Shown in pieces: positions 47,880 to 50,037 of a stretch of 64,000 nt of DNA. Each line of letters opens with the position of its first letter. Within the stretch, counting starts at the first letter, position 1. A program made the position numbers and the translations under genes. Source of the DNA: an uncultured cyanobacterium (GTDB lineage: Bacteria; Cyanobacteriota; Cyanobacteriia; CAKZMO01); the NCBI GenBank assembly GCA_963719515.1, contig CAVRCJ010000003.1, positions 480,001-544,000 on the forward strand, given 5' to 3'. Below the pieces are notes generated by a model. That model had not been told where the DNA came from. It saw only the letters and a list, made by a program, of their open reading frames with translations, and made no database searches.

Positions 47880-48185
47880 TCACAGCTCAATGCCCTCTTT
47901 CCGCTGGCGGTGCTGCGCGATCGCCCGCCGAAACCCCAAAACCACCAAAATATTTGTCAGCGTCAGAAAAACCTCCGCCCCGCCGTGTAGCCAGTCCACG
48001 TTGGCCAGCTCTTCTCCGTAAGCTGATTTAGCGTATAGCCCTGCGGGAATCGTGACGGCAACAAACACCAGCGTTCCATAGAACCCCGCTAGCGCTAAAG
48101 GGGGCGTTTTGCCGGAGCGGGTCAAAAACCACAGAAACCCGAGGTAGGGGAACAGCGATAGCGCGAACAGGGTTTCTTTAGACAT
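47880..48185 (-). CDS. DUF3593 membrane protein
   Basis: LFALSLFPYLGFL, LANVDWLHGGAE..LTLTN. Confidence 0.88.
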   Translation of the reverse strand: MSKETLFALSLFPYLGFLWFLTRSGKTPPLALAGFYGTLVFVAVTIPAGLYAKSAYGEELANVDWLHGGAEVFLTLTNILVVLGFRRAIAQHRQRKEGIEL

Positions 48186-48207
48186 TCTTTTCTCCGCATA
48201 TTTCCGT

Positions 48208-48380
48208 GGACTGCTAAACGTGGGCTGGTGACATCCTCCCGACGCTGATGCTACGCATACAGCGCGGGCTTCCTCAGTGACTCCCAGCTACCGCTGAGAC
48301 ATTCCCTGAGAGATTAAGGGCTTGATGTCCCACAGCCCTATTCAATAGGTTGATAGCCGCGTTGTGGTCGCGGCAGATCG
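48208..48380 (-). ncRNA. Predicted TnpB omega/reRNA: scaffold from tnpB 3' end and right end, guide from the flank
   Basis: Standard IS200/IS605 architecture; guide would start CAGCCCACGTTTAGCAGTCC; 5' boundary is a guess. Confidence 0.6.
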
Positions 48381-49471
48381 TTAAGCCGCATGACGGGCAA
48401 CTATGGACCCGATCGGCCAGCGTCTTTTGTACCCGCTCACCACAACCCGAGCAATCAATGCTGGTTCCGCGTGGGTTCTCAGCGATGGTCATCTTTCCAG
48501 CTTTCGCGGCTTTGAAAGAGCCTATCTCCAAGAATGTACCCCATGCGGCATCAGCGATTGACTTTGCCAGTCTGGTTCGAGCAAGTCCTTTGATGTTGAG
48601 CTTTTCATGAGCGACAACATCGTACTTTGAAAACAGCCAATCCCACACCTTAGAAAAGAAATCACGACGCTGACGCGATATCTTTCAGATGCAGTTTGGC
48701 GATGCGATTTACCTGCTTACGCCAGCGGTTAGAGCCCTTCTTCTGTCTCGATAGCTGCCGCTGCAGCTTGGATAGCTGCCGCTCTGAGCGTCGAAAGAAC
48801 TGAGGGATAGGAACGCTCTCACCGTCACTGGTAACCAAGAAATCCTTCAGCCCAACGTCAACACCGACAGACTTAGCCCTATCGACATCCGGAGTAAGCA
48901 TCGGAACGGCATTGTTTTCCAGTAACAGGCTCACATACCAACCATCTGCTTTGCGAGTCACCTTGGCCGTTTTGACAGTAAACCCATCAGGTATCGGGCG
49001 ATGAAGGATTAGCTTCACCTGACCAATCTTAGGCAGGGTAATACGACTTCCATCGATGCAGTCAGGTTTCATCTGCGGGAACGTGAACGTCCTGTAGCGC
49101 CCCGCGCCTTTGAACCGAGGCTTGCCGCTACGCTTACCATTCCTATCACCTTTGATGAAACGCTCGAACGTCTGCTTTACCTGCTTCGTCACCTCCTGAA
49201 GCGCTTGTGAGTGCAAATCTTTGTACCAGGGTCGCTCTCGCTTGAGAGGTACTAGGCTAGCCTTCTGGCTGTAGTAATTAGGATTATCTTTGAGTGGCGC
49301 AAGGCTACAGGTGAGTGGGCAGGCGTTGACCGAACAGCGGTTCATCTCCCACCAGTCGAAGCGCTCAGCCAGCAACCAGTTGTACTGTGCCCGAAGCATA
49401 TCTAGCCATCGGGTCATGGTAACCGTTTGCTCAGCCGCTGGACGCAACTTGTACTGATAAGTGACTTTCAT
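48274..49471 (-). pseudogene. tnpB: RNA-guided endonuclease TnpB, frameshifted by one extra base near 48683-48685
   Basis: YQYKLRP, GKPRFK, ITLPKIG, ADGWYV, RuvC GVDVG / HEKL / CRDHNAA, CSGC..CPSC; removing one A gives LKISRQRRDFFSKVWD and a 398-aa ORF. Confidence 0.9.
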
Positions 49472-49504
49472 GCAATAATGATAGCATATTGACATCAGAA
49501 CGAC

Positions 49505-49687
49505 ATGCAGCAAATAACTATTAGAGCCGCTGACAGAGAAAAGCAGCATCTTGACAAGTATTGTGAGATGACCGAAAGAACTATCAACGATGTCCTTAGG
49601 GAGTACATCCGAAGTTTGGCCGTCTCCGGGGTATTGAGCCCCATCGACGACCGCGACTCTCATCCCGACGCTCACCCTGACGGGTAG
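49505..49687 (+). CDS. Ribbon-helix-helix (CopG-like) protein inside the IS
   Basis: QITIRA (strand), DREKQHLDKYCE (helix), TINDVLREYIRSL (helix). Confidence 0.75.
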   Translation: MQQITIRAADREKQHLDKYCEMTERTINDVLREYIRSLAVSGVLSPIDDRDSHPDAHPDG

Positions 49688-49734
49688 AGCGCGGGGCTTC
49701 CTGTCTAGTAGCTAAACCTAGAGCAACCTTGACG

Positions 49735-50037
49735 CTAGGTTTTGGGCTGGGGCGATCGCCAGATCCACCAGGCGGCTACGCAAAGCGTGACGTTGCCCAA
49801 AACCGTCATGGCCGCCTGCAGGGTGACCAGCCAGCCTAAGCTGGGGGGATTGTCGAAAAAGTGCCAGGTACAGGCGCACATGGCGCTCACGAAGGCGGGC
49901 AGCATGGCCACAGACAGCGCCCGCCAAGAGCGATCGCCGCTGACGTCGCCGTAGGCCCAGATGAGGGCGATCGCTGCTGCCCATTCGATAACGCTAGAGA
50001 TATGGATAATCCAGGTGGGAATAGAGAGGGCGTGCAT
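49735..50037 (-). CDS. DUF2499 (Ycf49-like) membrane protein
   Basis: [37 protein letters not shown]. Confidence 0.9.

What the first reader, a model, noticed from the sequence alone, without database searches (positions are those of the whole stretch)
48208..49717. TnpB element whose ends, TAM (TTAG), guide and empty site can all be decoded from the sequence
Seen (minus strand): the left end reads GTTTAG|CTACTAGACAGG-AAGC-CCCGCGCT..AGCGTCGGG and the right end reads GAAG-CCCGCGCT..AGCGTCGGG-AGGATGTCAC|CAGCCCACGTTTAGCAGTCC. Known: in IS608-type ends, the 4 nt 5' of each hairpin specify the cut site (AAAG for TTAC, GAAT for TCAA). The same rule gives AAGC for TTAG and GAAG for TCAC, exactly the motifs found here. 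Independent support: removing 48228-49711 restores a 14-bp tandem repeat, GTTTAGCAGCCCAC-GTTTAGCAGTCCAC. Inference: this is a compact RNA-guided nuclease with a (T)TTAG TAM and a guide starting CAGCCCACGTTTAGCAGTCC.
Basis: partly seen in the sequence, partly recalled or inferred. Interest (0 to 1): 0.75.

Follow-up and report, generated by a model that had tools for sequence, protein, structure and literature searches.

The report
TnpB transposon with decodable TTAG target
This is a real but familiar kind of jumping gene in a cyanobacterium; the new point is that in its relatives the DNA word it jumps next to and two amino acids of its RNA-guided nuclease change together, which suggests a testable code for the word the nuclease reads.

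Summary
Observation confirmed. The genome holds 13 full sisters with intact TnpB, 3 tnpA-bearing copies and 52 mini-elements; the frameshift is private to this copy. The guide rule holds: AAGC-TTAG 91/91, AAGT-TTAA 14/14 here; 141 of 153 ends elsewhere, with TTAT, TTAC, TGAG, TCAG, TCAA variants. The 14-bp repeat is rare by chance (6/3000), but no true empty site was found. All this is a known kind, and this scan reported sister elements before. New here: TnpB residues 70 and 89, which align with ISDra2 TAM contacts S56 and F77, track the target (K with -1 G 50/50, Q/N with -1 A 7/7, H with -3 G 11/11). This supports the TTAG TAM from the protein side. It is not significant on independent pairs (p=0.125) and two published non-cyanobacterial TnpBs break it. 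TAM, guide RNA and cleavage are inferred, not measured.

The parts
49712..49716 (-). Target word TTTAG (core TTAG), left flank; TnpA cleavage site and inferred TnpB TAM
   Evidence: TTAG before 91 of 91 AAGC left ends, T at -5 in 63 of 73
48228..49711 (-). Whole element, 1484 bp, non-autonomous IS200/IS605 (arc + tnpB)
   Evidence: 13 sisters of 1483 bp plus interrupted and partial copies
49696..49699 (-). Left DNA guide AAGC
   Evidence: covaries with target at -1 and -3
49662..49695 (-). Left hairpin with bulged T, followed by AT (same letters as IS608 A+42 T+43 triplet bases)
   Evidence: IS608 bases
49505..49687 (+). Arc-like ribbon-helix-helix gene, 60 aa, in the tnpA slot; its last ~20 residues match the TnpA tail and share its stop
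   Evidence: Pfam RHH_1 E=0.022, below cut-off; Atlas RHH clusters 0.92; homologues in the same slot in other cyanobacteria
49472..49504 (.). 33-bp gap between the divergent arc and tnpB starts; likely shared promoter and Arc site (inferred)
   Evidence: sequence; the promoter scan found nothing here
48274..49471 (-). tnpB, 398 aa in sisters; RuvC D205/E289/D368 and zinc finger present
48683..48685 (-). A run with one extra A, private to this copy; frame ends after 269 aa
   Evidence: 1 of 14 full copies; contigs of runs X3 and X4 all lack the base
49262..49264 (-). Codon K70 (= ISDra2 S56), tracks the -1 target base
49196..49207 (-). Codons Q89 (= F77, tracks -3 base) to Q92 (= Q80, reads -2 A in ISDra2)
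48269..48272 (-). Right DNA guide GAAG
48236..48268 (-). Right hairpin followed by AG (same letters as IS608 A-10 G-9)
48228..48231 (-). Right cleavage site TCAC, ending 10 nt from the hairpin foot as in IS608
48228..48400 (-). Predicted reRNA scaffold overlapping the tnpB 3' end; 5' end unknown
   Evidence: folds at z -3.3 with the guide; no Rfam match; no RNA data laid
48208..48227 (-). Predicted guide of this copy (right flank)
   Evidence: position inferred from the right end
48206..48219 (-). Second unit of the 14-bp tandem repeat
49735..50037 (-). Host gene DUF2499, upstream flank
47880..48185 (-). Host gene DUF3593, downstream flank

Best explanation
A non-autonomous IS200/IS605 element. 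SHOWN: its ends carry IS608-type hairpins and guides; it and its sisters sit 3' of TTAG; a copy with the same ends and intact TnpA lies elsewhere in the genome. INFERRED from IS608, ISDra2 and ISGst work: that TnpA peels out the top strand in trans, leaving TTAG joined to the right flank; a reRNA ending in the right flank guides TnpB to cut the empty allele 3' of (T)TTAG, and repair from the sister chromosome restores the element. This copy's TnpB is truncated, so any cutting needs protein from an intact sister. INFERRED from the Arc preprint: the RHH protein represses the divergent promoter. INFERRED here: K70 reads the -1 G, Q89 suits -3 T and Q92 reads -2 A, so the TAM equals the TnpA target.
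For: Sister copies and target counts. Intact TnpA with HUH and Tyr motifs plus intact 398-aa TnpB at G000:C10:313970. Guide-target covariation in other genomes: 141 of 153, non-AAGC 49 of 57, best of 5000 shuffles 28. Gapless paralogue across a sister's rebuilt junction. Residues 70 and 89 rank first of 284 columns for the -1 and -3 base and align to ISDra2 S56 and F77, known TAM contacts. A second TnpB family in this genome has Q with TTAA 7 of 7 and K with TTAG 4 of 4.
Against: No cleavage, RNA or excision data. No empty allele found: same-genus spacers cannot be aligned and four runs show no skipping joint (contigs drop rare forms). Four CAGC ends in this genome sit at TTAG/CTAG, not TGAG. 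Arc is below the Pfam cut-off and no promoter was called in the gap. Loading of a sister's TnpB on this copy's reRNA is untested. Some Arc-linked TnpBs showed no activity in the preprint.
Confidence: 0.85

Rival explanations
1. The ends are decoded correctly, but the TnpB TAM differs from or is looser than TTAG; the residue pattern is only shared ancestry or linkage of the left end with the 5' part of tnpB.
For: Independent pairs do not reach significance: 4 same way, 0 opposite, 1 no change for -1 (p=0.125); 2 and 0 for -3 (p=0.5). In Nety et al. File S2 (read by eye), ortholog 42 has H at the F77 position with measured TTAA, and ortholog 52 has Q at the S56 position with measured TTTAT.
Against: The top columns are known TAM contacts. 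The switch appears in several clades of a tree built without those helices. A mosaic copy (C3:362181) keeps the match although neighbouring residues are of the other type. TAM equals TnpA target in tested systems.
Confidence: 0.1
2. This copy is an inert passenger: it still moves or stays through TnpA in trans, but makes no working guide-nuclease complex, so its guide has no function.
For: Private frameshift removes RuvC-II, RuvC-III and the zinc finger; TnpB matures its reRNA from its own mRNA (Nety et al., passages); no RNA evidence.
Against: The extra base lies in an A run, several other copies also carry single-base indels, so it may be an assembly error; the ends are intact; 52 gene-less mini-elements with these ends are abundant. 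This rival concerns this copy only and is compatible with the rest of the best reading.
Confidence: 0.35
3. The RHH gene and TnpB form a toxin-antitoxin pair, as proposed for archaeal RHH/MazE-TnpB.
For: Weak RelB-antitoxin hit, E=0.023, below cut-off; model proposed in Altae-Tran et al. 2023 (passages).
Against: That system is archaeal, immobile, with the RHH gene upstream of tnpB and a rearranged RuvC; here the genes diverge, the element is multicopy and D-E-D is canonical.
Confidence: 0.04

Closest known systems
IS608 (H. pylori) ends; He et al. 2011 PMC3201880 and Morero et al. 2018 PMC5934647 (passages read)
   Same: Tetranucleotide guides 5' of each hairpin, first two guide bases pairing crosswise with -3 and -4, AT after the left and AG after the right hairpin, right cut 10 nt from the hairpin foot.
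   Different: TTAG/TCAC instead of TTAC/TCAA; left cut 16 nt, not 19 nt, from the hairpin; third left-guide base G, not A; no tnpA in cis.
ISDra2 TnpB (Nakagawa et al. 2023 PMC10097598, TAM section read; PDB 8H1J, 8EXA)
   Same: Sequence and fold match (E 3e-43; Foldseek E 3e-14); Y52 and Q80 positions kept; RuvC triad and zinc finger.
   Different: K, S, Q at the S56, K76, F77 positions; predicted TAM TTAG/TTTAG instead of TTGAT; about 16 extra residues in REC.
Arc-bearing IS605 elements (Moon et al., bioRxiv 10.64898/2026.09.24.754181, parts 1-3 of 6 read; Zedaveinyte et al. 10.1101/2023.11.20.567912, passages)
   Same: Small RHH gene divergent from tnpB; the preprint tested elements with arc and tnpB alone.
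   Different: The reporter work read was on Firmicutes elements; its supplements were not seen, so cyanobacterial members may be among them. Here arc ends in the TnpA tail and shares its stop.
ISGst1-5 and PATE-like elements (Meers et al., bioRxiv 10.1101/2023.03.14.532601, passages)
   Same: One TnpA serving many non-autonomous and gene-less copies; covarying guide and TAM/TEM used to define ends.
   Different: Other host and motifs; the passages read do not link TnpB residues to the TAM.

Membership tests
IS200/IS605 | Subterminal imperfect hairpins at both ends | tested here: met
IS200/IS605 | Insertion 3' of a fixed 4-5-nt word, no target duplication | tested here: met
   TTAG 91 of 91; gapless paralogue at a sister junction
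IS200/IS605 | DNA guides that specify cleavage sites | tested here: met
   covariation, 141 of 153, exceptions listed
IS200/IS605 | Y1 HUH TnpA | tested here: met
   absent in cis; intact in trans in copies with the same ends
IS200/IS605 | Single-strand excision with a precise donor joint | not testable with these tools
   no joint seen in four runs of contigs
IS605 subgroup, autonomous (tnpA + tnpB) | tnpA inside the element | tested here: not met
   slot holds the RHH gene; filed as non-autonomous tnpB-only type
TnpB RNA-guided nuclease | HTH/REC, RuvC D-E-D, zinc finger in one frame | tested here: inconclusive
   met in 13 sisters, broken in this copy
TnpB RNA-guided nuclease | reRNA from the right end, guide in the flank | tested here: inconclusive
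   structured, no Rfam match, no RNA run laid
TnpB RNA-guided nuclease | TAM-dependent DNA cleavage | not testable with these tools
   inferred
Arc-like IS605 repressor | Stand-alone RHH protein beside tnpB or tnpA | tested here: met
   Pfam score below cut-off
Arc-like IS605 repressor | Binds and represses the element's promoter | not testable with these tools
   none here
Archaeal RHH/MazE-TnpB | Immobile locus, rearranged RuvC | tested here: not met
   multicopy, canonical triad

The most novel reading that the evidence does not exclude
In this cyanobacterial branch the match between TnpA target and TnpB TAM is kept by repeated paired switches: one base in the left DNA guide with one residue in REC (position 70: K for -1 G, Q/N for A, S/T for T; position 89: Q for -3 T, H for G, D for C). 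The near-identical TTAA and TTAG TnpBs in this genome would be a ready-made pair, and the code would let TAMs of this clade be read from sequence and switched by one or a few substitutions.
Probability: 0.5. Interest if true: 0.7.

Novelty: new member of a known kind. Interest (0 to 1): 0.48.

Why it matters
The element itself is ordinary. Its value is as a test case for an open point: how a DNA-guided transposase and a protein-read TAM stay matched. Nety et al. note the shared motif and say the link is unclear; a 2026 review says TAMs must be measured ortholog by ortholog. If the residue pattern is causal, it gives natural TTAG, TTAA, TGAG and TCAG TnpBs of about 400 aa and a rule for moving between them. 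No TTAG TAM was among the measured TAMs seen in the 'Typical' rows of Nety File S2 (TAM column hidden for 2 of 32 rows).

Tried and rejected
True empty site: 14 of 19 relatives' loci have DUF2499 and DUF3593 within 7-405 nt and no element, but the spacers do not align to ours; runs X1-X4 show no joint skipping the element. Copies of the TGAG (L047) and TCAG (L049) elements: one each in their genomes, so their cut positions rest on spacing alone. TTAG enrichment just downstream of insertions: 8 of 92 against 209 of 3000, rejected. Self-targeting by the guide: 10 TTAG sites match 8 nt with at most one mismatch, none match 10 nt. Cross-phylum transfer suggested by L040 (99% identical, record titled as another phylum): its flanks match G000 C12 at 92-99%, so it is not evidence of transfer. 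Rfam: no match. Plasmids: 3 partial matches, none covering 80%. The ADP-ribosyltransferase hit of the RHH ORF (E=0.09, below cut-off) is noise. The AlphaFold model (pTM 0.46) is too weak in RuvC to add more than the fold. Literature: searches (TTAG as whole word with TnpB) found 0 papers; others listed none that, in the listings or passages read, describes the residue pattern; subscription papers and preprint supplements were not searchable.

Full report
Observation. The element is 1484 bp and lies between DUF2499 and DUF3593 in a cyanobacterium (judged from relatives).

Copies. The genome holds 13 sisters of 1483 bp, one of 1612 and one of 5511 bp with insertions, three copies of 1780-1801 bp with a divergent tnpA, 52 gene-less elements of 391-393 bp with the same ends, and further families of 422-450 and about 1400 bp (108 of 111 left ends could be paired). 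Two pairs share a right flank, so not every copy is an independent insertion. With the cut fixed by distance from the stem, guide AAGC goes with TTAG in 91 of 91, AAGT with TTAA in 14 of 14; four CAGC ends go with TTAG (3) or CTAG (1), against the rule; two atypical ends were set aside. T is preferred at -5 (63 of 73). The right-end tally is circular, but the base after TCAC is free.

The rule. IS608 papers (passages) give the crosswise pairing of the first two guide bases with -3 and -4, triplet bases AT and AG after the hairpins, and a right cut 10 nt from the foot; all are matched here. The pairing of the fourth guide base with -1 is recalled, and borne out by the counts. In other genomes, 204 stems found by the hairpin pattern alone gave 193 distinct ends; 153 have an NAGN guide and 40 were set aside. 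The predicted word lies 14-19 nt upstream in 141 of 153, and in 49 of 57 non-AAGC ends, against at most 28 in 5000 shuffles. Seen: AAGA-TTAT 11 of 11, CAGC-TGAG 16 of 18, AAGT-TTAA 19 of 23, and single AAGG-TTAC, GAGC-TCAG and GAGT-TCAA. Such covariation is already used to define ends (Meers et al., passages).

Empty site. The rejoined 14-bp repeat is reached by 6 of 3000 random TTAG sites and by 2 of 104 rebuilt junctions; it supports the register TTAG|C. A paralogue aligns without gaps over 113 nt across a sister's rebuilt junction. A real empty allele of this site was not found.

Genes. tnpB starts at 49471; 13 of 14 full copies are open (398 aa, one 414), and only this copy has an extra A at 48683-48685. 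Whether that is real or an assembly error is open. The sister protein has D205, E289, D368 and the zinc finger and matches ISDra2 TnpB. It shares its stop and last residues with the TnpA of the autonomous copies, so it most likely replaced most of tnpA. Among 67 ends with a readable TnpB, the slot gave a TnpA match in 16, an RHH match in 8 and neither in 43; at least three more carry RHH-like ORFs by eye. Arc-tnpB elements are published, and this scan reported a sister copy and a similar element before; I had found the gene and the preprint beforehand.

Is the TAM TTAG? This is not measured, but the protein side agrees. A second TnpB family in this genome comes with either left end: Q at position 70 with TTAA in 7 of 7, K with TTAG in 4 of 4, 5 hits without an assigned end; outside the two helices their end branches are about 0.03. 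Across 60 proteins (L099, L125 and L160 left out as unalignable, truncated or degenerate), column 70 ranks first of 284 for the -1 base (G: K 50 of 50; A: Q 5, N 2; T: S, T, K) and column 89 first for -3 (T: Q 43, T 4, V 1; G: H 11 of 11; C: D 1). A profile alignment puts K70, S88, Q89 and Q92 on ISDra2 S56, K76, F77 and Q80, which contact -1, -3, the target strand and -4, and -2. This copy has K70, Q89, Q92.

Against over-reading. Kin share states: independent pairs give 4/0/1 (p=0.125) and 2/0/0 (p=0.5) on a quick tree with long-branch warnings, and recombination could spread one module. Held-out check in Nety File S2, by eye, on the 9 'Typical' rows with a measured TAM and a readable helix: S or A with -1 T in 6 (one is ISDra2 itself), D with C in 1, Q with A in 1, Q with T in 1; none has K or -1 G; ortholog 42 has H at 89 with -3 T. 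So the pattern is at best clade-limited, and firmer for -1 than for -3.

Mechanism. Shown: ends, target word, multicopy spread, TnpA in trans, intact sisters. Inferred from known systems: single-strand excision, reRNA-guided cutting of the empty allele and repair, Arc repression. Inferred here: the residue code.

Papers seen. Moon 2026 preprint: parts 1-3 of 6, supplements closed. Nety 2023: passages, and File S2 parts 1 and 4 plus the 32 'Typical' rows. Nakagawa 2023, Morero 2018, He 2011, Meers 2023, Zedaveinyte 2023, Altae-Tran 2023, Thornton 2025 and two 2026 reviews (PMC13639567, PMC13565253): passages only. Large TnpB TAM screens in subscription journals were not searchable and may hold TTAG enzymes or the residue pattern.

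Verdict. A correct decoding of a new member of a known kind; interest 0.48, carried by the testable residue-target co-switching.

Noticed in passing
G000 second TnpB family, e.g. C10:347740 (+, TTAA) and C10:892623 (+), C3:362181 (-) (TTAG): Near-identical TnpBs with two left-end types; differences cluster in the two TAM-reading helices.
   Followed up: yes
G000, 52 copies of 391-393 bp, e.g. C1:23689 (+): Gene-less elements with this element's ends and a different right-end interior; families of 422-424 and 449-450 bp also occur. Possible reRNA donors.
   Followed up: partly
G000 C10:597009, C11:34718, C13:152520, C13:70566; also L042: Guide CAGC with TTAG or CTAG target. True TGAG elements have AA after the hairpin; these keep AT. 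Unexplained: tolerated mismatch, or conversion after insertion.
   Followed up: partly
window 48206-48219 (-): A second TTTAG 14 nt past the right end is followed by 8 of 9 matches to the guide; probably too short for self-cutting.
   Followed up: partly
window 49477-49485 (-): Extended -10-like TGCTATCAT a few bases before the tnpB ATG, also in the tnpA-bearing copies; would mean a leaderless mRNA. Seen by eye, not called by the scan.
   Followed up: no
G000, 14 full copies: Variable sites form a patchwork, suggesting recombination between copies.
   Followed up: no
L231: Three-gene form, RHH then tnpA divergent from tnpB; a plausible ancestor of the arc-only layout.
   Followed up: no
L040: 99% identical element in a record titled as another phylum; flanks match G000 C12, likely mis-binned.
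   Followed up: yes
G000 C16:71602 (-) and C13:120428 (-): Sisters interrupted by other insertions (about 4 kb in tnpB; 129 bp in arc).
   Followed up: no
L164, L225, L134, L144, L160: Left ends with TCGT or TATA before the hairpin but TTAA or TTAT-like targets; they do not fit the guide rule.
   Followed up: no
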